Sequence record: PZ386972.1
Length of the DNA stretch: 64,000 nt
Strand: one strand, 5' to 3'
Origin: a phage
Below the pieces are notes generated by a model that was not told where the DNA came from, did not search any database, and saw nothing but the letters and a program-made list of their open reading frames with translations. Positions 35,014 to 55,525 of this stretch are shown here, piece after piece. Both the position numbers and the translations under genes were made by a program. The first letter of the stretch is position 1, and each line of letters starts with the position of its first letter.

Positions 35014-35046
35014 GCCCTGCGTTTCCTGGAGAGCGCAGGGCTTTTC
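35014..35046 (+). terminator. rho-independent terminator
   Basis: Hairpin GCCCTGCGTTTCCTGGAGAGCGCAGGGC followed by TTTTCT. Confidence 0.6.
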
Positions 35047-35084
35047 TATATAATGTAATTATAAAACTAACTAGGAGATTAAAC

Positions 35085-35603: not shown

Positions 35604-35609
35604 TATAAT
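35581..35609 (+). promoter_or_regulatory. early promoter embedded in the 3' end of the 35085..35603 CDS
   Basis: TTGCTA 35581-35586, TATAAT 35604-35609. Confidence 0.55.
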
Positions 35610-35624
35610 ATATCTTATAAATTC

Positions 35625-35713
35625 GGAAGAATAGCATAACGGTATTGCAGCAGATTGCTAATCTGTCGGTTTGAAATATAGCCTTGTGGGTTCGATTCCC
35701 ACTTCTTCCACCA
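35625..35713 (+). tRNA. tRNA-Ser (anticodon GCU), long variable arm
   Basis: Acceptor GGAAGAA/TTCTTCC; anticodon loop TTGCTAA; T-arm GTGGGTTCGATTCCCAC; CCA encoded; 89 nt. Confidence 0.6.
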
Positions 35714-35719
35714 AATTCT

Positions 35720-35797
35720 GGTTCTCAAGCTCATATGGTATGAGCACCCGGCTCATAACCGGAAGGTACGTAGGTTCGAATCCTCGGGGAGCCACCA
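35720..35797 (+). tRNA. tRNA with CAU anticodon (Met, fMet or Ile2)
   Basis: Acceptor GGTTCTC/GGGAGCC; D-arm GCTC/GAGC; anticodon loop CTCATAA; weak T-stem; CCA. Confidence 0.5.
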
Positions 35798-35816
35798 AAT
35801 TAAATAAGGACAACTA

Positions 35817-36005
35817 ATGGAATTATTCATAGTTTCTGTTAAATTTGCACAAGATAGAGAACGTTCGGATGAGTTTAAACAAGGGTACAGACTAGTAAAG
35901 GCTACATCTGAACTCCATGCTATGGACAAAGTAGTAGACTATATGTATAATGTAGAAGATGTTTACTACGTCAATGCTTTAGAAGCCTCAAAAGTAATTA
36001 ACTAG
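35817..36005 (+). CDS. hypothetical protein (62 aa)
   Basis: ORF track. Confidence 0.4.
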   Translation: MELFIVSVKFAQDRERSDEFKQGYRLVKATSELHAMDKVVDYMYNVEDVYYVNALEASKVIN

Positions 36006-36014
36006 GGAGACTAT

Positions 36015-36191
36015 ATGTCTAAGTTTCAAGAACTCAAGCAAGAGCTAGAAGAGTGTGCCTGCCCTGAGTGTAGGGGAATTGGTGAAAGTTCTGATGCAGA
36101 AGCAGGAGATACTTTTTGCAATATCTGGGTTTGCCCAAATTGCAGTGGTACAGGTATTAATCCTAACTGCGGTATTTCCCCTAGATATTGA
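36015..36191 (+). CDS. small Cys-rich zinc-ribbon-like protein (58 aa), below the ORF-track cutoff
   Basis: CPECRG...CNIWVCPNCSG Cys pairs; GGGAGA RBS. Confidence 0.35.
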   Translation: MSKFQELKQELEECACPECRGIGESSDAEAGDTFCNIWVCPNCSGTGINPNCGISPRY

Positions 36192-36302
36192 ACGAGGGTA
36201 ACACCTGTGAAACTAAAAGATTATTATATTGGTTGGTTTGTGGGACTAGTAGTAGGATTTTCACTAGGCTATAATATGTATCAACTAATAAACTGATTAC
36301 AT

Positions 36303-36379
36303 GGGGGTGTAATCGAATTGGCATAGGTACTGGACTTAAAATTCAGGTTTTGTGGGTTCGAATCCCACCACCCCTACCA
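36303..36379 (+). tRNA. tRNA, anticodon uncertain (hand fold gives UAA)
   Basis: Acceptor GGGGGTG/CACCCCT; T-arm GTGGGTTCGAATCCCAC; CCA; D-arm not resolved. Confidence 0.45.
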
Positions 36380-36554
36380 ACTTAAGGAAATAAGATGTAT
36401 AGACATCCACCTCCGCCAACACGTCGTTCTAGAGAAGTTATCCTCATGGAATTGACGAAAAACTTCAAGGCAACTCTTGAAGATAGAGATCTAGGCACGG
36501 ATGAAGACATTGATTTTATTTGTAGACTATTAAAGATGAAACTGGAGAAACAAC

Positions 36555-36761
36555 ATGGCTAATCCTGAAATTACCGCACAACGTTTCATGCTTAAAGGCA
36601 TGATTGCTGAGGCAGGTATGACCCAAGAGGTTGCAGACTTTCATAAGCAATTTCTTGATATTATAACTCTAGCTAAAGAGACAGGAGAAAGAGAACACGG
36701 AGCAGCAATTATGGCTATATCTCTTATTAGCCTAGACTTAGCTGAAGAATCTGGAGTTTAG
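36555..36761 (+). CDS. hypothetical protein (68 aa)
   Basis: ORF track. Confidence 0.4.
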   Translation: MANPEITAQRFMLKGMIAEAGMTQEVADFHKQFLDIITLAKETGEREHGAAIMAISLISLDLAEESGV

Positions 36762-36791
36762 CTCCTCCAAACAGAATTTTTAAAAATGTAC

Positions 36792-36821
36792 TTGCCTTTT
36801 GCTTTAAATTTCTGGTATAAT
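36792..36821 (+). promoter_or_regulatory. early promoter
   Basis: TTGCCT 36792-36797, TATAAT 36816-36821, 18-bp spacer. Confidence 0.55.
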
Positions 36822-36851
36822 AGTTATATAAATTGATGAAGGAGTTAACGA

Positions 36852-37127
36852 ATGCAAAATCGTGTTATAGCAACTGGTATTGAAAGTGCAATCTGTAAAT
36901 CCTGGGAAGGCTGGGAAGGTGAGATTGAATGGCTTTATTTCTACGATGTAGAACTTCTGCCGGAAGTTAAAGCTAAATGTGTTGAAGCTGGCATGGCTCC
37001 AGATGCAAAAGCTGATATTGATATTTCAATGTCTGAACTTAAAGGTCGTGTAATTACTGTTAGTGATGAGGGCGAAGAAGTTTTCGAACTTCCATTCTCC
37101 TTAACTGTCGCTCCTAAGTTCGACTAA
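36852..37127 (+). CDS. hypothetical protein (91 aa)
   Basis: ORF track; GGAG RBS. Confidence 0.45.
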   Translation: MQNRVIATGIESAICKSWEGWEGEIEWLYFYDVELLPEVKAKCVEAGMAPDAKADIDISMSELKGRVITVSDEGEEVFELPFSLTVAPKFD

Positions 37128-37132
37128 CTAAT

Positions 37133-37173
37133 ACAGCACTGAGCAAGTTCTTTAAAATTTGACTTGCTCAGTG
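37133..37173 (+). terminator. 12-bp-stem hairpin whose 3' arm overlaps the next promoter's -35
   Basis: GCACTGAGCAAG ... CTTGCTCAGTGC inverted repeat. Confidence 0.4.
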
Positions 37174-37192
37174 CCATAAAACTTGATATAAT
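37164..37192 (+). promoter_or_regulatory. early promoter
   Basis: TTGCTC 37164-37169, TATAAT 37187-37192. Confidence 0.5.
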
Positions 37193-37255
37193 AGTTATCT
37201 AATTTGGAAACATATCTAAAAGTGTTTAAACTAGTATTTGAATACTTTTAAATAT

Positions 37256-37343
37256 GGGCGTTTATTCCGTAGATGGTAGCGGAGGGGATTGTAAATCCCT
37301 GGTCATTGCGACTCGAGTGGTTCGACTCCATTAACGCCCACCA
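37256..37343 (+). tRNA. tRNA-Tyr (anticodon GUA), long variable arm
   Basis: Acceptor GGGCGTT/AACGCCC; anticodon stem GGGGA/TCCCT with loop TTGTAAA; variable stem-loop; CCA. Confidence 0.65.
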
Positions 37344-37361
37344 AATTTAAAGGTAAAATAT

Positions 37362-37844
37362 ATGTACACTGATAGAATTGTTCAAGAAGCTGCAAACAGA
37401 GGTCTTATTGATCTGGGATCACCAGTTGATATAACTAAAGAGCTAATAACAGAGAGCCTTACGTTTGGCACAGCTAACTTTGGCCGAGATAGTAACCGTC
37501 GGTATAGCTTGAAACTATCAGCATTATCTTTTATTAAGTACAATAAGAGTATTGGAGAAAAATCAAGTTGTGGTTTTATCTACGCGATAACTAATCCAGC
37601 TTGGACTGATTATGTAAAAATTGGCATGTCTTCTGACCCAAAAACAAGATTAGCCAATTACCAGACATATTCTCCACTACGTGACTATAAGTTAATACAT
37701 TGGTCATTTTGGTTTAATGCTAGAGAAGCAGAGAAAATGCTTCATAATAGCTTTCCAAAAAGAATTAATGAATGGGTAGTTTTGGACAGAAGTGTAGATG
37801 AAACACTTGCTGATTTTAATAAACTATCTAATAAACAATTTTAA
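37362..37844 (+). CDS. GIY-YIG-like (T5orf172-type) domain protein within the tRNA cluster
   Basis: 160 aa; GFIYAITNPAWTDYVKIGMSSDPKTRLANYQT resembles the GIY-YIG/T5orf172 core. Confidence 0.5.
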   Translation: MYTDRIVQEAANRGLIDLGSPVDITKELITESLTFGTANFGRDSNRRYSLKLSALSFIKYNKSIGEKSSCGFIYAITNPAWTDYVKIGMSSDPKTRLANYQTYSPLRDYKLIHWSFWFNAREAEKMLHNSFPKRINEWVVLDRSVDETLADFNKLSNKQF

Positions 37845-37845
37845 T

Positions 37846-37920
37846 GCACCTATCATCTATCGGTTAGGACATCAGGTTTTCAACCTGAGAAGCTTGGTTC
37901 GATTCCGTGTGGGTGTACCA
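37846..37920 (+). tRNA. tRNA-Glu (anticodon UUC)
   Basis: Acceptor GCACCTA/TGGGTGT; anticodon stem TCAGG/CCTGA with loop TTTTCAA; CCA. Confidence 0.55.
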
Positions 37921-37928
37921 AATTCTGC

Positions 37929-38005
37929 ATTCCTAGAGTGTTACTGGACAGCATGTCGGTCTCCAAAACCGTACGGTCTAGGTTCGAGTCCTAGTAGGTT
38001 TGCCA
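37929..38005 (+). tRNA. tRNA candidate, anticodon uncertain (possibly CCA/Trp)
   Basis: T-arm CTAGGTTCGAGTCCTAG and CCA end are clear; acceptor pairing needs two U-U mismatches. Confidence 0.35.
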
Positions 38006-38011
38006 AAATTT

Positions 38012-38086
38012 GCACCTTTAGCTGAGATGGATTAGCGCTTGCCTGAAGAGCTTGAGAGGTTCGTTCGATACGAACAGGGTGCACCA
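38012..38086 (+). tRNA. tRNA candidate, anticodon uncertain (possibly GAA/Phe)
   Basis: Acceptor GCACCTT/AGGGTGC; D-arm GCTG/TAGC; T-arm GTTCGTTCGATACGAAC; CCA; loop CTGAAGA with weak stem. Confidence 0.4.
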
Positions 38087-38088
38087 AA

Positions 38089-38376
38089 TTGAGGGAGCTG
38101 CTGATGCATCCTGAAAACTTCTTTATTTACTGCGCGGATAAGTTGCTGAAACGTAGAATTAACAAAGTCTATCATTATCGTGCTAGTCAACAGCCTTATG
38201 TATACGCTTTTGACGGTGATCACATCCCATTAGAACAACTATCTTGTGATTACATGATATTGAAGAACTTTGACGAGACAAAGATCTCAAGCGTTCATAA
38301 TCGACAGAATCCCTTAACGTGGAAATATAAGAAGAAAAAGAAAGGCATCAAATTCTTAAAAAATGTAGTTGCTTAG
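38089..38376 (+). CDS. hypothetical protein (95 aa)
   Basis: ORF track. Confidence 0.4.
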   Translation: MRELLMHPENFFIYCADKLLKRRINKVYHYRASQQPYVYAFDGDHIPLEQLSCDYMILKNFDETKISSVHNRQNPLTWKYKKKKKGIKFLKNVVA

Positions 38377-38397
38377 TTTCCAAAAGTTCTGTATAAT
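38369..38397 (+). promoter_or_regulatory. early promoter
   Basis: TTGCTT 38369-38374, TATAAT 38392-38397. Confidence 0.55.
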
Positions 38398-38425
38398 AAT
38401 TACATAAATTGAACTGGAGAAGCAA

Positions 38426-38713
38426 ATGAAACGATTAGTTAGATTTAAGTGTTGTGGTTCTGAACATATTTTCACACATCTTCGTGAATTTAAAATGTGT
38501 GATTGTGGTAAATCAGGCTATGACTCAGGAGATGGGTTCTACACCCGTACTCTAGGGAACTTCAATGATCTAGAATTTGAAGATCTCGAAAAACAAGAAA
38601 AAGAATTATGTATCTGTTATGAATGTGGTGATCAAGATTACTACTCTAAAACAGGTAAGAAAGTGTGTAGCAATTGTGGTTCCGATCATGTAGCTACACA
38701 TTATGAAAGATAA
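38426..38713 (+). CDS. Cys-rich zinc-finger-like protein (95 aa)
   Basis: Multiple CxxC pairs (CDCGKSG, CYECGD, CSNCGSDH). Confidence 0.45.
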   Translation: MKRLVRFKCCGSEHIFTHLREFKMCDCGKSGYDSGDGFYTRTLGNFNDLEFEDLEKQEKELCICYECGDQDYYSKTGKKVCSNCGSDHVATHYER

Positions 38714-38718
38714 TAAAC

Positions 38719-38794
38719 CGACCGTTGGCTGAATGGCTTAGGCGAAGGATTGCAAATCCTTTTTATGTGAGTTCAAATCTCATGCGGTCGTCCA
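38719..38794 (+). tRNA. tRNA-Cys (anticodon GCA)
   Basis: Acceptor CGACCGT/GCGGTCG; anticodon stem AAGGA/TCCTT with loop TTGCAAA; T-arm GTGAGTTCAAATCTCAT; CCA. Confidence 0.6.
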
Positions 38795-38796
38795 AT

Positions 38797-38936
38797 TTGC
38801 TGAAAGAATTGTTAAATCAATTCAGGCACGCGTAGGAACACTGTCTCCGTAATTGAAAGATGAGACACGGTTTGGAGAGGTATGCCGCTACACGCTACGG
38901 TGCTAACTCCGTCTAGGTGAAAATCCTAGTCAGCAA
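38797..38936 (+). ncRNA. structured RNA (~140 nt) with terminal pairing and T-arm-like hairpin, not a canonical tRNA
   Basis: 5' TTGCTGA pairs with 3' TCAGCAA; hairpins GTCTC...GAGAC and CTAGGTGAAAATCCTAG. Confidence 0.3.
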
Positions 38937-38946
38937 TATAAATTTA

Positions 38947-39029
38947 GGGTCGTTAGCCAAGCGGTTTGGCGGTGGACTGTTAATCCATGTCGAAAGACAA
39001 CGTAGGTTCGAATCCTACACGGCCCGCCA
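38947..39029 (+). tRNA. tRNA with GUU anticodon (Asn-like) and an atypical 13-nt variable stem-loop
   Basis: Acceptor GGGTCGT/ACGGCCC; anticodon stem GTGGA/TCCAT with loop CTGTTAA; variable GTCGAAAGACAAC; CCA. Confidence 0.45.
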
Positions 39030-39131
39030 AATTCTGTGTAGAGTTAAGTAAACCGGTAGCCAACCAGCTATCATTGCTGACATCGAATTCAGCCACAGAT
39101 ACCATTTTCATTAATAACTGAGGAAACAAGC

Positions 39132-39317
39132 ATGTCCAAGAATGTAATTGCACAGTTAGAAGTTCATCGTGATAACACAGCTAATAACATTAAGTGCCGA
39201 CAAAAAGATATTGAAGCTCAAAAGGCTGATCTTTTAATGAGTATTCGAGAGCTTAATGTACGAAAAGAGTTTCTTAAAGAACTTAATGCAGCTATTGAAA
39301 AACTCAAAGCTGAGTAA
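39132..39317 (+). CDS. hypothetical protein (61 aa)
   Basis: ORF track; AGGAAACAAGC RBS. Confidence 0.35.
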   Translation: MSKNVIAQLEVHRDNTANNIKCRQKDIEAQKADLLMSIRELNVRKEFLKELNAAIEKLKAE

Positions 39318-39326
39318 ATGAATTAT

Positions 39327-39403
39327 GCGACCGGGGCTGGCTTGGTAATGGTACTCCCCTGTCACGGGAGGGAATGTGGGTTCGAATCCCATCGGTCGCG
39401 CCA
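39327..39403 (+). tRNA. tRNA-Asp (anticodon GUC)
   Basis: Acceptor GCGACCG/CGGTCGC; anticodon stem CTCCC/GGGAG with loop CTGTCAC; CCA. Confidence 0.6.
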
Positions 39404-39420
39404 AATAAGGTAGGTTAGCT

Positions 39421-39579
39421 ATGGAACGTAGGGAGTTTACTCCGGAAGAGATAGAGCAGATAAAAGAATCTGCTATGAAAAATGCTAGAATATCTCTGTC
39501 ACTGGAAGGTATCATTATAAGTGATGTAAACTTTGAAAAAATCAAAGCCATAGCTGATGAACTGGAAAAAGTAATTTAA
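39421..39579 (+). CDS. hypothetical small protein (52 aa), below the ORF-track cutoff
   Basis: ATG after AAGGTAGG; fills the gap between two tRNAs. Confidence 0.3.
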   Translation: MERREFTPEEIEQIKESAMKNARISLSLEGIIISDVNFEKIKAIADELEKVI

Positions 39580-39580
39580 T

Positions 39581-39656
39581 ACATCCATAGCTCAATGGTT
39601 AGAGCTACCGCCTCTTAAGCGGAGGGTTCTAGGTTCAAGTCCTAGTGGGTGTACCA
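39581..39656 (+). tRNA. tRNA-Lys (anticodon CUU)
   Basis: Acceptor ACATCCA/TGGGTGT; D-arm GCTC/GAGC; anticodon loop CTCTTAA; T-arm CTAGGTTCAAGTCCTAG; CCA. Confidence 0.55.
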
Positions 39657-39682
39657 AACTAAACTAGCACGAGAAATATGCT

Positions 39683-40030
39683 ATGATTAATGCTAAAGAA
39701 GAGTTGTTACTTGCCCTAAAGAATACTAAGTCTGAAGTTAAGTGTATTAAGATAGAATTCGGTTATTATGGGAACAAAGAAGTTTGGATATTACCCGTAG
39801 GTTATACAGAAAAAGATATTGAAGATTTTCTAAATAATCTAGACTTCAAATATGATTCTGGTTTCGGTGGACAATTGCTTTACGGTAACGTATGGTTTAC
39901 TGATGGAACTTGGTTAGAGCGTGGTGAATATGATGGTTCTGAATGGTGGGAGTATAAGACTACACCAGCAATCCCAGAAGAATGCCGAACAATTAATGGT
40001 GAAGTAGATCGTACTTTACTATTAAATTAA
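39683..40030 (+). CDS. hypothetical protein (115 aa)
   Basis: ORF track. Confidence 0.45.
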   Translation: MINAKEELLLALKNTKSEVKCIKIEFGYYGNKEVWILPVGYTEKDIEDFLNNLDFKYDSGFGGQLLYGNVWFTDGTWLERGEYDGSEWWEYKTTPAIPEECRTINGEVDRTLLLN

Positions 40031-40038
40031 CAAAATTT

Positions 40039-40277
40039 CAGTGCAGAACACGGAGCTAGCAATTCGGAAGTGCTGACTCATGATAGGCTGCCTATGTACT
40101 TGCGAAGCGGTCGTGTCCAAGACTCGGACTCTTGCACTGAAAACAATCAAACATTCTAGCGTGGTTGATGGGGAAACCAGCTTGGCTAGGGCAGAAGCTC
40201 GTTCGATTCGAGTGAAAGAATGGTTCTCGTAAGTCCGCACAAGTGATAACAGGTTCGAGTCCTGTCTAGAATGACAC
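40039..40277 (+). ncRNA. composite structured RNA region with closing stems and two T-arm-like hairpins, unresolved
   Basis: CAGTGCAG (40039-46) pairs CTGCACTG (40132-39); ATTCTAG (40153-59) pairs CTAGAAT (40267-73); T-arm-like hairpins at 40197-40213 and 40250-40266. Confidence 0.3.
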
Positions 40278-40422
40278 TATAAAGTTTACTTATTATGTAG
40301 GTTCCGATAGATCGGCGGGTCTATTCTGGCATTTAAGAGAGGTCTCGCAAACTTCTTTGTCAGCCGTGGGGTTGATAGCCTCCAGGTGGCCTACACAATA
40401 AGTAAATTTATTAAAAATTCAT

Positions 40423-40451
40423 TTGCTATTCTGCTTAATTATCTGTATAAT
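40423..40451 (+). promoter_or_regulatory. early promoter
   Basis: TTGCTA 40423-40428, TATAAT 40446-40451. Confidence 0.6.
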
Positions 40452-40481
40452 ATATTTTATAAAGTGAGTTAACAAAATTAA

Positions 40482-40557
40482 CAGTGCGTAGCGCAGTTGG
40501 TAGCGTGGGAGCCTTGGATGCTTCGGGTCGCAGGTTCGAGTCCTGCCGCACTGACCA
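40482..40557 (+). tRNA. tRNA-Pro (anticodon UGG)
   Basis: Acceptor CAGTGCG/CGCACTG; anticodon stem GGAGC/GCTTC with loop CTTGGAT; T-arm GCAGGTTCGAGTCCTGC; CCA. Confidence 0.65.
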
Positions 40558-40563
40558 AACAAT

Positions 40564-40641
40564 TGCGGGTTAGATCTCTGGTAGAGATCGCTAGTCTCAT
40601 AAGCTAGAAAGAGGTAGGTTCGATTCCTGCACCCGCTTCCA
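40564..40641 (+). tRNA. tRNA with CAU anticodon and a 1:72 mismatch (initiator- or Ile2-like)
   Basis: D-arm GATC/GATC; anticodon stem CTAGT/GCTAG with loop CTCATAA; T-arm with TTCGATT loop; CCA. Confidence 0.55.
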
Positions 40642-40661
40642 TTTTAATAGAGGATTTCGAA

Positions 40662-40829
40662 ATGAAAGTATTTCGATTAGTAGTAAGTGACAAACGTTTA
40701 GGTAAGAATACCTCAAAATCCTTACTTGCTCATTATGGAAAAGATGAGAAAGAAGTAATGGCGGAGTTTGGGATTAATCACCCTTACTTGAAAGTTCACT
40801 CTATTAAAGAAGTATATAATGGTTACTAA
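40662..40829 (+). CDS. hypothetical small protein (55 aa), below the ORF-track cutoff
   Basis: ATG after GAGGA; between two tRNAs. Confidence 0.3.
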   Translation: MKVFRLVVSDKRLGKNTSKSLLAHYGKDEKEVMAEFGINHPYLKVHSIKEVYNGY

Positions 40830-40830
40830 T

Positions 40831-40909
40831 AGATCGCTAGCTCAATAGGTTTAGTAGCATCCGACTTTTAATCGGAAGGTTCTGGGTTCGAGTCCCAGGC
40901 GATCTACCA
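40831..40909 (+). tRNA. tRNA-Lys (anticodon UUU)
   Basis: Acceptor AGATCGC/GCGATCT; anticodon stem TCCGA/TCGGA with loop CTTTTAA; T-arm CTGGGTTCGAGTCCCAG; CCA. Confidence 0.55.
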
Positions 40910-40927
40910 ATTTCAAGAAAAACGCAG

Positions 40928-40956
40928 TTGCTTGATGCTTAATTTCTTGTTATAAT
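40928..40956 (+). promoter_or_regulatory. early promoter followed by a 9-bp-stem leader hairpin
   Basis: TTGCTT 40928-40933, TATAAT 40951-40956; hairpin TGATGAGGA-TTT-TCCTCATCA at 40969-40989. Confidence 0.55.
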
Positions 40957-41194
40957 ATTTATATAAATTGATGAGGATTTCTCCTCATCATAGTTCACTA
41001 AGGTATTAGCTCGACCTAGGACTGGCTGCCAAAAAGCACGATCCCTACGATTCGGGAGAAGTTCTAGATTAGTCCACTAGATTCAGCGGCAACTGAATAG
41101 TGTATCGGGTTTGCGAGATGACGCGGTTCCTTCCGCTCGAAGCGAAGGTGCTGTAGTTACGCCGAGCTAATAGCCTTAGTAAACTAAAGAATTT

Positions 41195-41273
41195 GGGGAA
41201 TGGGTCTGCATGGAGTGGACACCTCGCTTGCACCGAGGACATCAGAACGGTTCGATTCCGTTATTCTCCACCA
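41195..41273 (+). tRNA. tRNA-Ala (anticodon UGC)
   Basis: Acceptor GGGGAAT/ATTCTCC; anticodon stem CCTCG/CGAGG with loop CTTGCAC; T-arm AACGGTTCGATTCCGTT; CCA. Confidence 0.6.
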
Positions 41274-41278
41274 AATAC

Positions 41279-41355
41279 GCGTGATTGATGGAATTGGCAT
41301 ACATACCGTCCTTAGAAGTCGGGTTTTGAGGGTTCGAATCCCTTGTCACGCACCA
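41279..41355 (+). tRNA. tRNA, anticodon uncertain (hand fold gives UAG)
   Basis: Acceptor GCGTGAT/GTCACGC; D-arm ATG/CAT; T-arm GAGGGTTCGAATCCCTT; CCA; anticodon stem has a U-U mismatch. Confidence 0.4.
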
Positions 41356-41440
41356 AATTTGATGGTCAGAGTAAATTAAACCTACTATCTCGGTTGAGCT
41401 GTTTTAATGGGTTCGAATCCCAGCGAGGCGTAACTGCCTG
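41356..41440 (+). ncRNA. orphan T-arm-like hairpin plus adjacent hairpin; possible tRNA remnant or small RNA
   Basis: TGGGTTCGAATCCCA at 41408-41422 and AGGCGTAACTGCCT at 41427-41440; no acceptor partner found. Confidence 0.25.
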
Positions 41441-41467
41441 GCGTGATAGAGGCATCATCTTATTATT

Positions 41468-41558
41468 GGAAGAGCAAATCGAATTGGCGACGAAAACCGC
41501 TTGGAAAGTGGCTGACTGGTAAAACGGCTTGAGAGTTCAAATCTCTCCTCTTCCGCCA
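41468..41558 (+). tRNA. tRNA-Ser (anticodon GGA), long variable arm
   Basis: Acceptor GGAAGAG/CTCTTCC; anticodon loop TTGGAAA; T-arm GAGAGTTCAAATCTCTC; CCA; 91 nt. Confidence 0.55.
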
Positions 41559-41570
41559 AACAATTTATAT

Positions 41571-41665
41571 GGTAGGTCAATCCAATGGCTGGCGCTGGAC
41601 TCCGACTTGAAATCGGTTGATCGTAGTGATACGGTGTAAGGGTTCGATCCCCTTACCTACCTCCA
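41571..41665 (+). tRNA. tRNA-Ser (anticodon UGA), long variable arm
   Basis: Acceptor GGTAGGT/ACCTACC; anticodon loop CTTGAAA; variable stem CGTA/TACG; T-arm AAGGGTTCGATCCCCTT; CCA; 95 nt. Confidence 0.55.
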
Positions 41666-41670
41666 AGTCT

Positions 41671-41802
41671 TGAAGTATGCCGGAATCGGTAGACGGGGCT
41701 GCCTAAAAGGTTTATAGGGAACATCCACTCCCTACAACATACCTCATAAAGCGGCTGAGATAAATGGTCTATCTCGTGAAGGTTCAAGTCCTTCTGCTTC
41801 TT
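41671..41802 (+). ncRNA. structured region with terminal T-arm (GAAGGTTCAAGTCCTTC) and internal hairpins, unresolved
   Basis: Hairpins TAGGGA...TCCCTA (41714-41734) and GAGATA...TATCTC (41757-41775); T-arm 41778-41794; no CCA. Confidence 0.25.
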
Positions 41803-42031
41803 GATACATCTATGGCTCAAAGTGTAACGGTGCTATTTGATGCTCTTAGTAAGACTTTCCCGACATGCGTTCGGGAGTAAGCTGCTAAGGCTAGAATAGA
41901 AGAGTTTCTGAGAGCCGCCACAATTGAAAATTCGTACTCGTCTTGAGCTGCGTGCAATAGGAGATAACTTGATTAGTATTCTAGAACATGCTAATTGAGG
42001 ATGGTTTCGCTAACCCTGCGAGTTTTCAATT

Positions 42032-42108
42032 GTGGCTATATCATAATTGGTTAATGATCCTGATTGTGAATCAGGCCTATGTGGATTCGAATTCCACTAG
42101 CCACCCCA
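42032..42108 (+). tRNA. tRNA-His (anticodon GUG)
   Basis: Acceptor GTGGCTA/TAGCCAC; D-arm TCAT/ATGA; anticodon stem CCTGA/TCAGG with loop TTGTGAA; T-arm GTGGATTCGAATTCCAC; CCA. Confidence 0.65.
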
Positions 42109-42133
42109 AATTAACTTAAATAGGAAATAAAAT

Positions 42134-42331
42134 ATGGCTGATTTCTGCAAACAATGCTCCATTGATATGTGGGGCAGAGATACTGGTGATCTTTCTGGTT
42201 TGATTACAGAAGCTGAGGTCAAAGAAGGTTATGGTGCAGTTGTGATTTGCGAAGGATGCGGAGTTATTCGAGTAGATCATGAAGGCAAACGTTTAGAAGA
42301 ACAGGAAAACTTAGGAGAAACAAATGAGTAA
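42134..42331 (+). CDS. hypothetical Cys-containing protein (65 aa)
   Basis: ORF track; RBS. Confidence 0.4.
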   Translation: MADFCKQCSIDMWGRDTGDLSGLITEAEVKEGYGAVVICEGCGVIRVDHEGKRLEEQENLGETNE

Positions 42332-42560
42332 TGCTTTAATTAGTGAAATTATGTTAACACGTCTTGCAGAACTGCAAACTCTTCGAGATGAATCTCAGAA
42401 TAACTTAGCCTACCATAAACAGATGGTAGATACTCTTACTACTCGTATTGATACTTACGAGCGTGATATTGCAGCATTACAAGCTCTTTTCTCTGTATCA
42501 GCACCAGATACGTTAGAACAGCCTGCTGTATCTCAGCCAGTAGAAACAGCATCTAGCTAA
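42324..42560 (+). CDS. hypothetical protein (78 aa)
   Basis: ORF track; overlapping start and stop. Confidence 0.4.
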   Translation: MSNALISEIMLTRLAELQTLRDESQNNLAYHKQMVDTLTTRIDTYERDIAALQALFSVSAPDTLEQPAVSQPVETASS

Positions 42561-42569
42561 TAGCATTCT

Positions 42570-42645
42570 TGGGATGTAGATCAATTGGCAGATCGTCGGC
42601 CTCTGACTCCGAAGGTTCCACGTTCGATCCGTGGCATCCCAGCCA
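42570..42645 (+). tRNA. tRNA-Gln (anticodon CUG)
   Basis: U1-A72 acceptor TGGGATG/CATCCCA; D-arm GATC/GATC; anticodon loop CTCTGAC; T-arm CCACGTTCGATCCGTGG; CCA. Confidence 0.6.
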
Positions 42646-42651
42646 AACAAT

Positions 42652-42727
42652 TGGAGAGTAGTGTAACGGTTAGCACAACGGCCTTTGACTCCGTTAATGG
42701 TAGGTTCGATTCCTCCTTCTCCAGCCA
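42652..42727 (+). tRNA. tRNA-Gln (anticodon UUG)
   Basis: U1-A72 acceptor TGGAGAG/TTCTCCA; D-arm GTGT/GCAC; anticodon loop CTTTGAC; CCA. Confidence 0.6.
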
Positions 42728-42735
42728 AGTAATAA

Positions 42736-42811
42736 GCGGTTAAGCACACGGGTTGTGTCGCAGGCCTTCCAAGCCTCGCTGAGTAGGGTTCGATTCCCTC
42801 TAGCCGCTCCA
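42736..42811 (+). tRNA. tRNA-Gly (anticodon UCC)
   Basis: Acceptor GCGGTTA/TAGCCGC; anticodon stem AGGC/GCCT with loop CTTCCAA; T-loop TTCGATT; CCA. Confidence 0.55.
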
Positions 42812-42827
42812 ACTTTAAGGAAACATT

Positions 42828-43079
42828 ATGCACGTTTTTGAGTTTCGTAATAAAAGTACCGATAAACGAGTTATTGTTATTGGAGAAACATACCGAGCAT
42901 ACGAACAAACTGACGGCTCTGTTATCCTAAACGATGAGAAAGGAGGTTTTAGCTTTTATCCAGAAGAACCTTATGAAGAGTTTCGAAAACAATTTAACCT
43001 AGACTGGAGAAAGCATTTAAACACTGTTGCTTCATCTGTAGTATTGCCAACTACCAGTACTGTACTCTCTAATGGCTGA
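42828..43079 (+). CDS. hypothetical protein (83 aa)
   Basis: ORF track; AAGGAAACA RBS. Confidence 0.4.
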   Translation: MHVFEFRNKSTDKRVIVIGETYRAYEQTDGSVILNDEKGGFSFYPEEPYEEFRKQFNLDWRKHLNTVASSVVLPTTSTVLSNG

Positions 43080-43236
43080 TAACCTAAAAGTCAAGATCGA
43101 TAAACAAAAGAAACGTGTAGAAGTAGAGATTGGTGAAGAACGTGTAGCCTTCACCTTTGAATTTCTACAACAAATGGCAATGGCGGTTATGACTGATAAG
43201 TCTCCTGTTATTGAAAAAGAAATCCCGTTGAAATAA
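43072..43236 (+). CDS. hypothetical small protein (54 aa), below the ORF-track cutoff
   Basis: ATG overlapping the upstream stop region. Confidence 0.3.
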   Translation: MADNLKVKIDKQKKRVEVEIGEERVAFTFEFLQQMAMAVMTDKSPVIEKEIPLK

Positions 43237-43244
43237 CGGGTTCT

Positions 43245-43331
43245 GCTGGGTTGGCAGAATGGTTGAATGCACCTGATTTGTAATCAGGAGGAGTAATCCC
43301 GTTGCAGGTTCGAATCCTGTGCCCAGCACCA
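43245..43331 (+). tRNA. tRNA with UGU anticodon (Thr-like) and an atypical 15-nt variable region
   Basis: Acceptor GCTGGGT/GCCCAGC; anticodon stem CCTGA/TCAGG with loop TTTGTAA; T-arm GCAGGTTCGAATCCTGT; CCA. Confidence 0.5.
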
Positions 43332-43345
43332 ACTTAAGGACTATT

Positions 43346-43513
43346 ATGTTTAAATTATTAGTAGTTATCTGGTATAGTCAATCAAATAGAGCGAATACCT
43401 CCCACGTTATAGACTTTAATACTAAAAATGAAGCTGAAAAAGCATATTCTAATTTAATAGAACGTAATAAAGAATCTCGTAGTATAGTTTATGAAGTGAC
43501 TAAACTTTATTAA
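43346..43513 (+). CDS. hypothetical protein (55 aa)
   Basis: ORF track 43319..43513, start moved to ATG 43346 after AAGGA so it no longer overlaps the tRNA. Confidence 0.35.
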   Translation: MFKLLVVIWYSQSNRANTSHVIDFNTKNEAEKAYSNLIERNKESRSIVYEVTKLY

Positions 43514-43521
43514 AAATTCAT

Positions 43522-43550
43522 TTGCTTTCTCTCTTATTTATTGTTATAAT
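43522..43550 (+). promoter_or_regulatory. early promoter
   Basis: TTGCTT 43522-43527, TATAAT 43545-43550. Confidence 0.6.
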
Positions 43551-43580
43551 ATTTATATAAATTAATGAGAGGGAAGCCAA

Positions 43581-43874
43581 ATGAAACGTTATCTTTCTGT
43601 TGTGTTCCAAACTGGTGGTCAACGCTATACCTATGAATTTCCTGGCTCTTGGAAGATCAAAGAGGGTGATCAAGTAGTAGTGTTAACACCGCGTGAGGGT
43701 TTCAAGGTAGTAACGGTTAAGCAAGTATTTCCAAAAGAGCATGAACCAGCTAAAGGCATTCGCTATAAGATGATTCATGGTGTAGTTCGTCAAGTACCAC
43801 GAGCGGAAGTCGAAATCAAAGTAGATAAAGATGGTAGACTTAAATATACCTCTTGCTTAGATGAGCTGCTATAA
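43581..43874 (+). CDS. hypothetical protein (97 aa)
   Basis: ORF track; GAGGGAAG RBS. Confidence 0.45.
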   Translation: MKRYLSVVFQTGGQRYTYEFPGSWKIKEGDQVVVLTPREGFKVVTVKQVFPKEHEPAKGIRYKMIHGVVRQVPRAEVEIKVDKDGRLKYTSCLDELL

Positions 43875-44080
43875 TGAGGATTACTTTCACAGAAAAGATC
43901 ATGAGTAATGGTGTTATGATCATTACTGCATGGGATGGCAATCAGTGGTGTAGTGTTTCAGGTATTAAGCCTGAAGAACAAACACTAGAAAATATCTCAA
44001 AGATTAAGCGAAGAATGGCAGAACGTGCACGACTTCCAGGTGCACCTAGAAATGGCAAACGTTCTGCTGCAAAATGTTAA
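43874..44080 (+). CDS. hypothetical protein (68 aa)
   Basis: ORF track. Confidence 0.45.
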   Translation: MRITFTEKIMSNGVMIITAWDGNQWCSVSGIKPEEQTLENISKIKRRMAERARLPGAPRNGKRSAAKC

Positions 44081-44081
44081 T

Positions 44082-44158
44082 GCTTCGGTAGCTTAGCGAT
44101 CTAAAGCACTCGGCTGATAACCGAGAGATCGGGGGTTTAAATCCCTCCCGGAGTACCA
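44082..44158 (+). tRNA. tRNA-Ile (anticodon GAU)
   Basis: Acceptor GCTTCGG/CCGGAGT; D-arm GCTT/AAGC; anticodon stem CTCGG/CCGAG with loop CTGATAA; T-loop TTTAAAT; CCA. Confidence 0.6.
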
Positions 44159-44244
44159 AATTTAGGAATTAAGACTATGCGTCCAGGAAAGTTTAAAAAA
44201 GCTAATTGGTCTAAAGAGTATAAAGAATACTTACTTAGTCTAGT

Positions 44245-44320
44245 AAAACATAACAGTTAGTTGGCAGAGTGGTTATGCACCTCCTTCATACGGAGCGACT
44301 ACAGTGGTTCAAATCCACTA
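44245..44320 (+). tRNA. tRNA with CAU anticodon (third CAU tRNA in the cluster)
   Basis: Acceptor AGTTAGT/ACTAACT; anticodon loop TTCATAC; T-arm AGTGGTTCAAATCCACT; CCA. Confidence 0.55.
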
Positions 44321-44367
44321 CTAACTACCATTAAAAGAGCTAGAGATAGCTAAATTTAGGAGCAGCT

Positions 44368-53300: not shown

Positions 53301-53308
53301 TAAACAAA

Positions 53309-53337
53309 GCCTGATCTTAGCGGATCAGGCTTTTATT
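53309..53337 (+). terminator. rho-independent terminator
   Basis: Hairpin GCCTGATCTTAGCGGATCAGGC followed by TTTTATTTT. Confidence 0.65.
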
Positions 53338-53341
53338 TTAC

Positions 53342-53370
53342 TTGCTTTTTGCTAAAAATTTTGGTATAAT
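53342..53370 (+). promoter_or_regulatory. early promoter
   Basis: TTGCTT 53342-53347, TATAAT 53365-53370. Confidence 0.6.
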
Positions 53371-53397
53371 ATTTATATAAATTGACCGGAGGATTAA

Positions 53398-53643
53398 ATG
53401 TTAGCGGAACAGGCAAAACGTTTAGCCAGAATAAATAGAGCTGCACTTCTTAAAAGCAGAAAGAAACAATATAAGTATGTTAAAAAGAGAATAGTTTCTT
53501 CTGTGGGGATTGGAGGTTCTTTTGTACAGTTTAATCGTGATGAAATTAGTTATGAAGCTATAAAAGCCCTCTATAAAGAGGGTTATACCCTCCAACTATC
53601 TAATGATTATGGTACAACTATTTTAACTGTTATTTGGGAATAA
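53398..53643 (+). CDS. hypothetical protein (81 aa)
   Basis: ORF track; GGAGG RBS. Confidence 0.4.
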   Translation: MLAEQAKRLARINRAALLKSRKKQYKYVKKRIVSSVGIGGSFVQFNRDEISYEAIKALYKEGYTLQLSNDYGTTILTVIWE

Positions 53644-54509
53644 TTATGAAAAAAGAATTTAATGTACATAAAACTCTAGTAGTGCCGGATGATGCCAACT
53701 TGTTTTTCGTTGGTGATATTCATGGATGCAACGATTTGCTAGAAGATGCGTTGAAATTAGCTGGGTATAATAGCAAAAAAGATTGCGTAGTATGTGTTGG
53801 TGATTTAATTGACCGAGGCACGCAAAACCTACAAGTTTTAGCCAAATTCCTGTATAATCCACGCTTTATCAGTGTCCGTGGTAATCATGACCAATTTATG
53901 ATTGTGGGAGATTGGGCTAATTGGATGTATAATGGCGGTATGTGGGCCATGAATGAACTAGATGCAGACACCATTAAAAATATTGCCGAAGATATGGCTG
54001 AAAAAATGCCAGTATTCCTAACTGTTAGACATCGTGGTAAGAAGTTTGGTGTTGTTCATGGTGGTGTACCTTTTACATACAAAGAATGTGGTAATGAAGT
54101 AGAAACCCCAGTATGGGATAATCTTATTGCACAAGTAGAAGCAACTAAGGAAGACCCACATGACCATCCGGGATACCATGTTGAACCATATTTATGGGAT
54201 CGAGATGTAATCCAAGAAATAGGCTTCTACTTGTCCAAAAATGGTGAGGAACACCCATATTTCCAGCGTTATGCAGGATTTAAAGAAAAATACATGGTAG
54301 AAGTGCCAGAAGTTAAAGGGGTAGATTTCGTATTTCACGGGCATACTGGGGTCCCTTACCCGCTTCTTTATAAAAACCGTGTTTATCTTGATACTGGCGG
54401 TGTTTTCAACGGGCAGTTGACGGTTGCGCAGGTTAATGATGAAACGGGCAAAATCACCACATTTACTACACTCCGGGAAGATAGCTGTGGTGTACAGAGG
54501 ATTCTTTAA
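53634..54509 (+). CDS. Ser/Thr protein phosphatase (PPP-family metallophosphatase)
   Basis: 291 aa; GDIHG...GDLIDRG...RGNHD signature. Confidence 0.7.
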   Translation: MGIIMKKEFNVHKTLVVPDDANLFFVGDIHGCNDLLEDALKLAGYNSKKDCVVCVGDLIDRGTQNLQVLAKFLYNPRFISVRGNHDQFMIVGDWANWMYNGGMWAMNELDADTIKNIAEDMAEKMPVFLTVRHRGKKFGVVHGGVPFTYKECGNEVETPVWDNLIAQVEATKEDPHDHPGYHVEPYLWDRDVIQEIGFYLSKNGEEHPYFQRYAGFKEKYMVEVPEVKGVDFVFHGHTGVPYPLLYKNRVYLDTGGVFNGQLTVAQVNDETGKITTFTTLREDSCGVQRIL

Positions 54510-54808
54510 TGAATGATAGAATGAAAGAAGTACGAGAAGAATTACGAGCAATGCGTATTGATGCCCTTCGTTGGAGGGCATTAGTTAATGCTTTCGTCAA
54601 AGGAGATACTGGGGTAATATATTCTGGGATAGCAGTCAATTTTTGTTTTAATTCTCCTACTGAAATAGAGGTAGAAACAAGGCTTACTACCTATCTTAAT
54701 GAGGTAGACCTTAAGGAAGGAGAGACTTCCGAGGAGTTTAAAACCAAAGTGTTAACCTCTTGGGTTGATAGTTTAATACAGAATAAGGAAAAGAGTAATG
54801 AAAGTTAA
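54509..54808 (+). CDS. hypothetical protein (99 aa)
   Basis: ORF track. Confidence 0.4.
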   Translation: MNDRMKEVREELRAMRIDALRWRALVNAFVKGDTGVIYSGIAVNFCFNSPTEIEVETRLTTYLNEVDLKEGETSEEFKTKVLTSWVDSLIQNKEKSNES

Positions 54809-55388
54809 ATTCTGGTCAGACTTGCACCTAGACCACCCTGGAGCGTTACGTTTCCGTCCGTGGTTTAAGAACATGAAGGAGCACGATGAGTATATTCTAG
54901 ACACTTTGTCCAAGCATATTGGTAAACGAACAAAACTTATTTTGCTAGGGGATATTGCAGTAGGTCGTGAAGGTCTGGCCAAATTAAAGTCGGTTATCCA
55001 CAATGTTCCTAACCAACTTATAATGGGCAACCACGATGCGGAACGTCAAGGACTGAGTATTAGGGACTTAGCAGAAGTTTATGACGATATTCAGGCTCTA
55101 GGTAAACAGACTGGAGGCGGCAAAAAGTTTTGGCTATCTCACTGCCCTTTGCACCATAATGAACTTCGTGGCAAACTAAATATTCACGGACACGTACATA
55201 CTACTTCTCTACGTGATCCACGTTATATCAATGTCTCATTTGAAATGAGTAAAACTCCAATTCCACTAGAAGATATTGTGTCTGGTAAGTTTACTAGTTA
55301 TGATAGAGTAGTTAATTGTACTACCGGCGAGGTATTACAAATAGGGGAAGACGTAGCTGCTGTATTGCGTGGTGATATAAATGTCTGA
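54798..55388 (+). CDS. calcineurin-like metallophosphoesterase
   Basis: 196 aa; SDLHLDHP, LLGDIAVGREG, MGNHD, GHVH motifs. Confidence 0.6.
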   Translation: MKVKFWSDLHLDHPGALRFRPWFKNMKEHDEYILDTLSKHIGKRTKLILLGDIAVGREGLAKLKSVIHNVPNQLIMGNHDAERQGLSIRDLAEVYDDIQALGKQTGGGKKFWLSHCPLHHNELRGKLNIHGHVHTTSLRDPRYINVSFEMSKTPIPLEDIVSGKFTSYDRVVNCTTGEVLQIGEDVAAVLRGDINV

Positions 55389-55496
55389 GTATATAGCTGA
55401 GGCTATTATTAAACGAATTATACAAGCGGTAGCAATACTTATAATCATTTGTATTGCTATTGGCACAGGATTAGGCATTTTAATTAAAAGTTTTAT

Positions 55497-55525
55497 TTGC
55501 TAAAATGCTTAAGTTTCTGTATAAT
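55497..55525 (+). promoter_or_regulatory. early promoter overlapping the end of a 39-aa hydrophobic mini-ORF (55384..55503)
   Basis: TTGCTA 55497-55502, TATAAT 55520-55525. Confidence 0.55.

What the first reader, a model, noticed from the sequence alone, without database searches (positions are those of the whole stretch)
53634..55388. Two metallophosphoesterases in one early operon
A PPP-family Ser/Thr phosphatase (GDIHG/GDLIDRG/GNHD) and a second calcineurin-like phosphoesterase lie 300 bp apart. This suggests dephosphorylation of host proteins, or of nucleotides and signalling molecules, as a takeover or anti-defence function.
Basis: partly seen in the sequence, partly recalled or inferred. 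Interest (0 to 1): 0.4.

Follow-up and report, generated by a model that had tools for sequence, protein, structure and literature searches.

The report
Two phosphoesterase genes in T5-like phage
The window comes from a T5-like phage, and the two neighbouring genes are the long-annotated lambda-type protein phosphatase and a small phosphodiesterase-type enzyme found in hundreds of T5 relatives; both look catalytically intact, but their targets are still untested, so the finding is real but ordinary.

Summary
The window is a Tequintavirus (T5-like) genome, 98.8% identical to phage NBEco002 across this region.

- **First gene, 53646-54509.** It encodes a 287-aa lambda-phosphatase-type enzyme. 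This is the orthologue of T5.035, with every metal ligand invariant.
- **Second gene, 54798-55388.** It encodes a 196-aa small metallophosphoesterase of the aq_1665 / mycobacteriophage D29 gp66 family. This is the orthologue of T5.034, also with every ligand invariant.
- **Gap between them.** The 288-bp gap is filled by a 99-aa ORF found only in T5 relatives.
- **Operon.** The genes abut or overlap behind one terminator and one sigma-70 promoter. That promoter sits where T5 records annotate an early promoter.

The two enzymes belong to different families and are not recent duplicates. The first keeps the arginine needed for monoesterase activity. The second lacks it, so it looks like a phosphodiesterase acting on nucleotides or nucleic acids.

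One paper places the classical late-transcription mutation C2 in the phosphatase gene, and a low-sensitivity knock-down screen scored both genes as dispensable.

The parts
53306..53333 (+). Terminator-like hairpin ending the upstream thioredoxin operon
   Evidence: A 12-bp stem followed by a T-run. It sits at the same place as the terminator annotated after T5.037 in the T5 records.
53342..53370 (+). Sigma-70 promoter: -35-like TTGCTT, 17-nt spacer, extended -10 TGgTATAAT
   Evidence: Read directly from the sequence. It corresponds to 'putative early promoter T5P10' and the unnamed promoter upstream of T5.036. The consensus scan missed it because the -35 hexamer matches only 3 of 6 positions.
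53398..53643 (+). 81-aa ORF, orthologue of T5.036; function unknown
   Evidence: ORF, with a GGAGGA ribosome-binding site at 53388-53393. It matches PHROG 7354 (E 4e-53) and has no Pfam match. It was present upstream of the phosphatase in 23 of the 26 T5-like loci.
53646..54509 (+). Lambda-phosphatase-type PPP metallophosphatase, 287 aa, orthologue of T5.035
   Evidence: - Family and structure matches: Pfam, PHROG and PDB hits.
- AlphaFold model with pLDDT 92.4.
- Invariant residues: D24 H26 D53 D56 R57 N80 H81 H138 R186 H233.
- About 65 extra, mostly helical residues (roughly 157-207) relative to lambda phosphatase.
54509..54808 (+). 99-aa ORF between the two enzymes; function unknown
   Evidence: It matches PHROG 14979 (E 6.7e-61) and has no Pfam, NCBIfam or PADLOC match. 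It occurs in 94 phage records, all T5-like by name, and lies next to the phosphatase gene in all 25 rows listed. It is absent from T5 itself.
54798..55388 (+). Small metallophosphoesterase of the aq_1665 / D29 gp66 family, 196 aa, orthologue of T5.034 (52% identity)
   Evidence: - PHROG 547.
- AlphaFold model with pLDDT 94.4.
- hhalign against D29 gp66: probability 99.3%, E 8.9e-21.
- Invariant residues: D8 H10 D52 N78 H79 H115 H130 H132 H134, plus P117 H119 R124 Y143.
- 52% identical to T5.034.
55381..55503 (+). Unannotated 40-aa hydrophobic ORF overlapping the phosphoesterase stop; possibly a fifth gene of the block
   Evidence: ORF. It is intact at the same position in 23 of 27 T5-like loci, including T5 itself, and a different 33-aa hydrophobic ORF occupies the spot in two others. 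It is not annotated in NBEco002 or T5.
55497..55525 (+). Next promoter (TTGCTA, 17 nt, TATAAT) driving the downstream DUF7020 gene
   Evidence: Found in the consensus scan with 10 of 12 matches. It corresponds to promoter P-F30 / T5P9 in the T5 records.

Best explanation
This is the conserved early cassette T5.036 - T5.035 - (orf99) - T5.034 of a T5-like phage. It is probably transcribed as one unit from a sigma-70 early promoter. It encodes two catalytically competent binuclear metallophosphoesterases from different families, which most likely do different jobs.

**1. The 287-aa enzyme.** It is a lambda-phosphatase / PrpA-PrpB-type PPP enzyme. It keeps the phosphate-binding arginine and the GNHD histidine. 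It is therefore expected to be a Mn2+-dependent phosphomonoesterase, most likely a protein phosphatase for phospho-Ser/Thr/Tyr/His, with some diesterase activity like lambda phosphatase. Its most likely role is to remove phosphates from host or phage proteins during the early phase. One paper links it to the classical gene C2, which is needed for the switch to late transcription.

**2. The 196-aa enzyme.** It belongs to the phage-borne aq_1665 / D29 gp66 family. It lacks the monoesterase arginine, and by sequence it sits nearest to nuclease and diesterase members of the superfamily. It most likely acts as a Mn2+-dependent phosphodiesterase on nucleotides (2',3'-cyclic NMPs) or on nucleic-acid ends, as part of phage nucleic-acid or nucleotide metabolism.

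**Shown versus inferred.** Shown: gene identity, intact active sites, folds, family relationships, gene linkage. Inferred: substrates, metal dependence, timing, and any biological role.
For: **Identity and context**
- 98.8% DNA identity to phage NBEco002, with the same annotations.
- Orthologues and an early promoter are annotated in three independent T5 records.

**Phosphatase**
- All lambda-type ligands and GDxxDR are invariant in 46 of 46 homologues.
- The arginine is essential for monoesterase activity, and lambda phosphatase also cleaves 2',3'-cNMPs (PMC2190708).
- Klimuk et al. state that the C2 mutation maps to the 32-kDa putative Ser/Thr phosphatase ORF (PMC7472727).

**Phosphoesterase**
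- Five metallophosphoesterase motifs are invariant.
- It is homologous to D29 gp66 (probability 99.3%). D29 gp66 is reported as a 2',3'-cyclic nucleotide phosphodiesterase, and A10ZJ24 Gp48, which that paper aligns with the cluster A phage MPEs, has diesterase and DNase activity (PMC12287305).
- No arginine at the GD+4 position.
- The next-best sequence matches are Mre11, SbcD, nuclease MPE, GpdQ and Rv0805.
- Homologues elsewhere sit beside thymidylate synthase, dCMP deaminase, DNA polymerase A or helicase/exonuclease genes.

**Different families**
- Of 54 non-T5 loci carrying the phosphoesterase, 52 have no adjacent phosphatase.
Against: - No biochemical data exist for either T5-type protein.
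- The C2 assignment is a single unreferenced sentence in one paper. None of the three T5 GenBank records labels this ORF as C2 in the stretches read here.
- CRISPRi-ART scored T5.034, T5.035 and T5.036 as 'Not Fit'. That does not fit an essential late-transcription gene. However, the same screen also scored portal, primase and tail genes as 'Not Fit', so its sensitivity is low.
- The physiological substrates of lambda phosphatase itself are unknown, and a nucleic-acid role has not been excluded.
- The phosphoesterase family has an invariant R124 and H119 outside the classical motifs. These could supply phosphate contacts, so the 'diesterase-only' inference is weak.
- Family members have very different reported functions: D29 gp66 is a 2',3'-cyclic nucleotide phosphodiesterase, Bxb1 gp47 is a non-enzymatic recombination directionality factor, and A10ZJ24 Gp48 is a DNase.
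- The strict adjacency in all 26 T5-like loci, plus two unrelated phage lineages with either gene order, hints at some functional coupling. An 'independent jobs' model does not explain that.
Confidence: 0.55

Rival explanations
1. The two enzymes work in series on one substrate. The arginine-less phosphodiesterase opens a 2',3'-cyclic phosphate on an RNA end or free nucleotide. The lambda-type monoesterase then removes the resulting 2'/3'-phosphate. Together they would be a two-gene equivalent of the phosphatase module of bacterial Pnkp. This could heal tRNA or mRNA cut by host abortive-infection RNases, or clear 2',3'-cNMPs.
For: - The closest characterised relatives of both enzymes hydrolyse 2',3'-cyclic nucleotides: lambda phosphatase (PMC2190708) and D29 Gp66.
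- The genes are adjacent in all 26 T5-like loci, and in two unrelated phage contigs with opposite gene order (L035, L038).
- The phage invests heavily in tRNAs, with 22 tRNA genes in this window.
Against: - No polynucleotide kinase or RNA ligase lies in the operon.
- From my own knowledge, not checked here, none is known in T5.
- 52 of 54 non-T5 loci have the phosphoesterase without the phosphatase.
- Lambda phosphatase can already perform both steps on its own.
- The Pnkp hit is far below its cut-off (38.5 bits against 750).
Confidence: 0.12
2. One or both enzymes are counter-defence factors that destroy cyclic nucleotide or oligonucleotide immune messengers (CBASS, Pycsar, Thoeris, type III CRISPR), or that dephosphorylate targets of a host defence kinase.
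For: - The genes sit in an early operon, are non-essential in a laboratory host, and are widespread accessory genes. The phosphatase family is in 1445 and the phosphoesterase family in 1377 of 50,697 phage records.
- The junction is mosaic and fast-changing, with allele replacement as in arms-race loci.
- A homologous mycobacteriophage phosphoesterase was reported to enable escape from host immunity (PMC12287305).
Against: - No direct evidence was found, and no literature on the T5 proteins supports it.
- The mycobacteriophage mechanism reported is DNA degradation, not messenger hydrolysis.
- From my own knowledge, the known phage messenger-degrading enzymes (Acb1, Apyc1) have other folds.
- Both genes are conserved in essentially all T5 relatives rather than patchily.
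Confidence: 0.1
3. The 196-aa enzyme is a DNase, like mycobacteriophage A10ZJ24 Gp48 or Pseudomonas putida MPE. It would contribute to host DNA breakdown or to processing of phage replication and recombination intermediates.
For: - It is homologous to D29 gp66, and PMC12287305 aligns A10ZJ24 Gp48 with the cluster A phage MPEs. That Gp48 degrades linear, plasmid and genomic DNA in vitro.
- Its structural and sequence neighbours include SbcD, Mre11 and nuclease MPE.
- Bxb1 gp47 of the same family is needed for phage DNA replication.
- Homologues lie in replication modules.
Against: [quoted passage not shown]
- The PdeM / nuclease MPE family model scores 23.9 bits against a cut-off of 150.
- D29 Gp66 was described as a cyclic-nucleotide phosphodiesterase, not a DNase.
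Confidence: 0.15
4. The 287-aa enzyme is not a protein phosphatase. It would be an ApaH-like dinucleoside-polyphosphate hydrolase or an enzyme that removes Np4N caps from RNA.
For: - ApaH shares the same three motifs.
- The protein is ApaH-sized (287 aa against about 280) because of an insert absent from lambda phosphatase.
Against: - Lambda phosphatase and PrpA/PrpB score much higher in every comparison.
- The ApaH equivalog model scores 59.8 bits against a cut-off of 176.
Confidence: 0.08

Closest known systems
Bacteriophage T5 genes T5.035 (Ser/Thr protein phosphatase) and T5.034 (phosphoesterase), with upstream T5.036
   Same: - Same genome position, order, strand and promoter.
- The phosphatase is about 94% identical to that of the T5 locus (L029).
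- T5.036 is about 85% identical.
- Annotated in three T5 records from 2004-5.
   Different: - The phosphoesterase here is a different allele: 196 aa against 173 aa, 52% identity, with a longer C-terminus.
- A 99-aa ORF separates the two genes here, whereas in T5 they abut.
- The exact arrangement seen here is that of NBEco002, AKFV33 and about 90 other T5 relatives.
Bacteriophage lambda Ser/Thr phosphatase (NinI / ORF221; PDB 1G5B) and E. coli PrpA/PrpB
   Same: - Same metal ligands, the GDxxDRG arginine and the GNHD histidine.
   Different: - About 65 extra residues, mostly helical, between the motif IV and motif V histidines. These are shared only with the T5-like clade.
- Scores are far below the PrpA/PrpB equivalog cut-offs (98.8 and 80 bits against 326 and 332).
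- The gene sits in an early operon of a virulent phage, not in the nin region of a temperate phage.
Mycobacteriophage D29 Gp66 (with Bxb1 gp47 and A10ZJ24 Gp48, which PMC12287305 groups with it as cluster A phage MPEs)
   Same: - Homologous over the whole catalytic domain (hhalign probability 99.3%, E 8.9e-21, 30% identity).
- Small, single-domain, phage-encoded enzymes.
- Expressed early (stated for Gp48).
   Different: - Only about 28-30% identical.
- The host and phage family are different.
- Reported activities within this group differ from each other: 2',3'-cNMP phosphodiesterase, recombination directionality factor, DNase. Function therefore cannot be transferred with confidence.
Aquifex aeolicus aq_1665 (PDB 1XM7; COG4186 'predicted phosphoesterase')
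   Different: aq_1665 is a structural-genomics protein of unknown function, so it gives no functional information.

Membership tests
PPP-type / lambda-phosphatase-like metallophosphatase | Motif I GDxHG, motif II GDxxDRG, motif III GNH[DE] | tested here: met
   GDIHG (aa 23-27), GDLIDRG (52-58) and GNHD (79-82) are present. D24, H26, D53, D56, R57, N80 and H81 are invariant in 46 homologues.
PPP-type / lambda-phosphatase-like metallophosphatase | Two further histidine metal ligands (lambda H139 and H186) and the second phosphate-binding arginine (lambda R162) | tested here: met
   H138, H233 and R186 are invariant. They align to the lambda segments. The lambda residue numbers come from my own knowledge.
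PPP-type / lambda-phosphatase-like metallophosphatase | Fold superimposes on lambda phosphatase | tested here: met
   [not shown]
PPP-type / lambda-phosphatase-like metallophosphatase | Mn2+-dependent hydrolysis of phospho-Ser/Thr/Tyr substrates | not testable with these tools
   This needs an enzyme assay. No publication on the T5-type protein was found.
E. coli PrpA/PrpB equivalogs (NCBIfam NF008516, NF007425) | Score above the curated equivalog cut-off | tested here: not met
   98.8 bits against 326, and 80 bits against 332. It is related to these proteins but not an equivalog.
ApaH (symmetrical Ap4A hydrolase) | Score above the NCBIfam cut-off | tested here: not met
   59.8 bits against 176 for NF001204, and 35.6 against 222.85 for TIGR00668.
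aq_1665 / D29 gp66-type small phage metallophosphoesterase (PHROG 547, COG4186) | Five metallophosphoesterase motifs: DxH, GD, GNH[DE], H, GHxH | tested here: met
   D8, H10, G51, D52, G77, N78, H79, H115, H130, G131, H132 and H134 are invariant in 44 sequences.
aq_1665 / D29 gp66-type small phage metallophosphoesterase (PHROG 547, COG4186) | Full-length similarity to family members | tested here: met
   [not shown]
aq_1665 / D29 gp66-type small phage metallophosphoesterase (PHROG 547, COG4186) | Phosphodiesterase activity (2',3'-cNMP, bis-pNPP, or DNA) | not testable with these tools
   Reported only for mycobacteriophage members.
PdeM / nuclease MPE (ligase-associated DNA-damage endonuclease, TIGR04123) | Score above the cut-off, and a location in a ligase-helicase repair operon | tested here: not met
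   23.9 bits against 150. No ligase or helicase neighbours are present.
Known anti-phage defence components (PADLOC) | Match to any defence-system protein model | tested here: not met
   None of the four proteins of the block searched (81-aa ORF, phosphatase, 99-aa ORF, phosphoesterase) gave a match. This library does not cover counter-defence proteins.

The most novel reading that the evidence does not exclude
The conserved pairing may reflect a two-step pathway. The arginine-less gp66-type diesterase would open 2',3'-cyclic phosphates on cleaved RNA or on cyclic nucleotides. The lambda-type monoesterase would then strip the remaining phosphate. This would give T5-like phages a split, kinase-less 3'-end-healing or cyclic-nucleotide-clearing module that blunts host RNA-cleaving or nucleotide-signalling immunity.

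The clade-specific 65-residue insert in the phosphatase, and the small ORFs around the genes (81 aa, 99 aa, 40 aa), could be specificity or regulatory subunits.
Probability: 0.1. Interest if true: 0.6.

Novelty: already known. Interest (0 to 1): 0.2.

Why it matters
The practical value is modest. Lambda phosphatase is a standard laboratory reagent, yet its natural substrate is still unknown (PMC2190708). The T5 version sits in a virulent phage with good genetics, and one paper says the classical late-transcription mutation C2 maps to it.

If that link is confirmed, T5.035 would be a protein phosphatase required for a phage transcription switch. It would also give a way to find the natural substrates of this enzyme type.

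The second enzyme belongs to a family present in well over a thousand phage genomes. Its three studied members are reported to do three different things, so a clear assignment in T5 would help annotate many genomes. None of this makes the present observation new: it confirms existing annotation.

Tried and rejected
2. **TTG start at 53634.** Rejected in favour of the ATG at 53646, which all annotated relatives and the alignment use.
3. **Defence-system membership.** PADLOC gave nothing.
4. **Primary papers on T5 gene C2.** Chinnadurai & McCorquodale 1974 and Szabo & Moyer 1975 are not held in the library. Searches for other papers on C2 found only Klimuk et al..
5. **Papers on phage phosphatases countering defence kinases or on NinI function.** Nothing relevant was found.
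6. **Polyvalent-protein paper (PMC5512222).** It discusses only 2H phosphoesterases, not this fold.
7. **Co-location of both families in Listeria phage LP-125.** Only the phosphatase-like gene lies in the 7-kb stretch examined, so this gives no support for linkage there.
8. **HIDEN-SEQ preprint.** It contains no data on T5 genes.
Full report
**What the window is.** The 2.3 kb around the finding is 98.8% identical to phage NBEco002 (Tequintavirus, Demerecviridae). It matches 440 phage records, almost all of them T5-like phages of Escherichia and Salmonella. The surrounding genes confirm this: T-type holin, M15 endolysin, thioredoxin, a DUF7020 protein and a block of 22 tRNAs. In NBEco002 the two genes are annotated 'NinI-like serine-threonine phosphatase' and 'phosphoesterase'. 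In T5 itself they are T5.035 and T5.034. Three independent GenBank records from 2004-5 annotate them as Ser/Thr protein phosphatase and phosphoesterase, with an early promoter upstream of the small ORF T5.036.

**Checking the observation.** Both ORFs are present on the + strand.

Relatives and the alignment begin at the ATG at 53646, giving 287 aa.
- The three quoted motifs are present.
- The '300 bp apart' is a 288-bp stretch fully occupied by a 99-aa ORF (54509-54808). This ORF overlaps its neighbours by 1 and 11 nt.
- Upstream lie a terminator-like hairpin (53306-53333) and a promoter (TTGCTT, 17 nt, TGgTATAAT at 53342-53370), followed by an 81-aa ORF.
- Downstream, the next promoter is at 55497-55525.

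Four, possibly five, tightly packed ORFs between one terminator/promoter pair and the next promoter look like an operon. The word 'early' rests on the T5 annotation, not on transcript data seen here.

**The first enzyme.**

- Lambda phosphatase is the best match by sequence (E 3.4e-33).
- In an alignment of 46 homologues down to 35% identity, all metal ligands and both phosphate-binding arginines are invariant.
- The T5-like clade carries about 65 extra, mostly helical residues between the fourth and fifth motifs. These are absent from lambda phosphatase and from short bacterial relatives.
- It scores below the equivalog cut-offs for PrpA, PrpB and ApaH. It is therefore a distinct branch of the lambda-phosphatase clade.

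**The second enzyme.**

- It only just passes Pfam Metallophos but matches PHROG 547 strongly.
- All five metallophosphoesterase motifs are invariant across 44 homologues, together with the family-specific residues P117, H119, R124 and Y143.
- A family profile finds aq_1665 at E 1.5e-20, then only Mre11, SbcD, nuclease MPE, GpdQ and Rv0805 weakly.
- It is clearly homologous to mycobacteriophage D29 gp66 (hhalign probability 99.3%).

According to PMC12287305, the cluster A mycobacteriophage MPEs are highly conserved in sequence but do different things. D29 Gp66 is a 2',3'-cyclic nucleotide phosphodiesterase. Bxb1 gp47 is a recombination directionality factor that is also needed for replication. 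A10ZJ24 Gp48 is a phosphodiesterase and DNase required to overcome host immunity in M. tuberculosis.

**Monoesterase versus diesterase.** Keppetipola & Shuman showed that the arginine of GDxxDR is essential for monoesterase activity but not for diesterase activity. Diesterase-only members (Mre11, MJ0936, Rv0805, YfcE) lack it. The GNH histidine favours cyclic-nucleotide hydrolysis (PMC2190708). The phosphatase has this arginine in 46 of 46 sequences. The phosphoesterase has G/D/T/N/S/K at that position and keeps the histidine. This supports a division of labour: a mono- plus diesterase, and a diesterase. The caveat is that the invariant R124 and H119 of the second family might substitute for the missing arginine.

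**Are the two linked?** They are not recent duplicates.

- Among 80 viral contigs carrying the phosphoesterase, all 26 T5-like loci have the phosphatase just upstream on the same strand.
- Only 2 of the other 54 do (L035 in the same order, L038 in reverse order).
- Each family occurs in roughly 1400 of 50,697 phage records.
- Outside T5 relatives, the phosphoesterase sits in replication and nucleotide-metabolism modules.
- Within T5 relatives the junction is mosaic. The phosphoesterase has two alleles (52% identity) and the spacer varies from 0 to about 575 bp.
- The 99-aa ORF is found in only 94 records, all T5-like by name, and lies next to the phosphatase in every row listed. Phosphatase and phosphoesterase alleles assort independently.

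Linkage is therefore strong inside one phage family and rare elsewhere. This is weak evidence for a shared pathway.

**Biological role.**

- Klimuk et al. (PMC7472727) state that the classical C2 mutation maps to the ORF for a putative 32-kDa Ser/Thr phosphatase. C2 was earlier associated with a 90-kDa RNA-polymerase-bound protein and with late transcription. They conclude that the effect of C2 on polymerase must be indirect. No primary mapping data were found, and the T5 records do not label the gene C2.
- A CRISPRi-ART screen of T5 scored T5.034, T5.035 and T5.036 as 'Not Fit'. The same screen also scored portal, primase and tail genes that way, so it cannot exclude importance.
- Host DNA breakdown in T5 is attributed to the pre-early protein A1, itself a predicted metallophosphatase. 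This argues against a host-DNase role for the enzyme here.
- No evidence for an anti-defence role was found.

- Both enzymes are predicted to be active.
- They belong to different families and probably have different substrates: proteins, or phosphomonoesters more broadly, for the first; nucleotide or nucleic-acid phosphodiesters for the second.
- Their real targets are unknown.
- The most interesting open points are the unverified C2 link, and the possibility that the pair acts in series on 2',3'-cyclic phosphates.

Interest is low (0.2) and novelty is 'already known'.

Noticed in passing
window 55381-55503 (+): An unannotated 40-aa hydrophobic ORF (MSEYIAEAIIKRIIQAVAILIIICIAIGTGLGILIKSFIC) overlaps the stop codon of the phosphoesterase gene. 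It is intact at the same position in 23 of 27 T5-like loci, including T5 itself. Two loci carry a different 33-aa hydrophobic ORF there. It is probably a real small membrane protein missed by annotation.
   Followed up: partly
window 53398-53643 (+): The 81-aa first gene of the operon (T5.036 orthologue) is labelled 'major head protein' in RefSeq records and in PHROG 7354. An 81-aa early-region protein with no Pfam match is very unlikely to be the capsid protein, so the label looks like a propagated annotation error.
   Followed up: no
window 54509-55388; loci L007-L032 and L076: The phosphatase-phosphoesterase junction is a recombination hot spot. The phosphoesterase has two alleles (196 aa and 173 aa, 52% identity). 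The 99-aa ORF is seen only with the 196-aa allele, and spacers range from 0 to about 575 bp. Phosphatase alleles (about 78% or above 93% identity) assort independently of phosphoesterase alleles.
   Followed up: partly
locus L076, about 6516 onward: In one T5-like contig an ORF with HNH-endonuclease-like sequence follows the phosphoesterase gene where the 40-aa ORF normally sits. Several relatives also show 0.45-0.7 kb insertions within the 2.3-kb region (two-piece matches). These fit the homing endonucleases common in T5 genomes.
   Followed up: no
window 33932-44330 (+): A cluster of 22 tRNA genes lies here, including two tRNA-Lys, two tRNA-Gln, two tRNA-Leu and two tRNA-Met. This is the usual T5 tRNA region.
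   Followed up: no
window 53646-54509, residues about 157-207 of the phosphatase: A mostly helical insertion of about 65 residues lies between the fourth and fifth metal-binding motifs. It is present only in the T5-like clade and absent from lambda phosphatase and the roughly 225-aa bacterial relatives. It may determine substrate choice. Its position relative to the active site could not be examined.
   Followed up: partly
T5 supplementary fitness table (PMC11879866, file 16): In the T5 CRISPRi-ART screen the neighbouring RNA-polymerase-binding gene T5.026 is 'Fit'. Many known structural and replication genes (portal T5.152, primase, tail genes) are 'Not Fit', which shows limited sensitivity for T5.
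   Followed up: no
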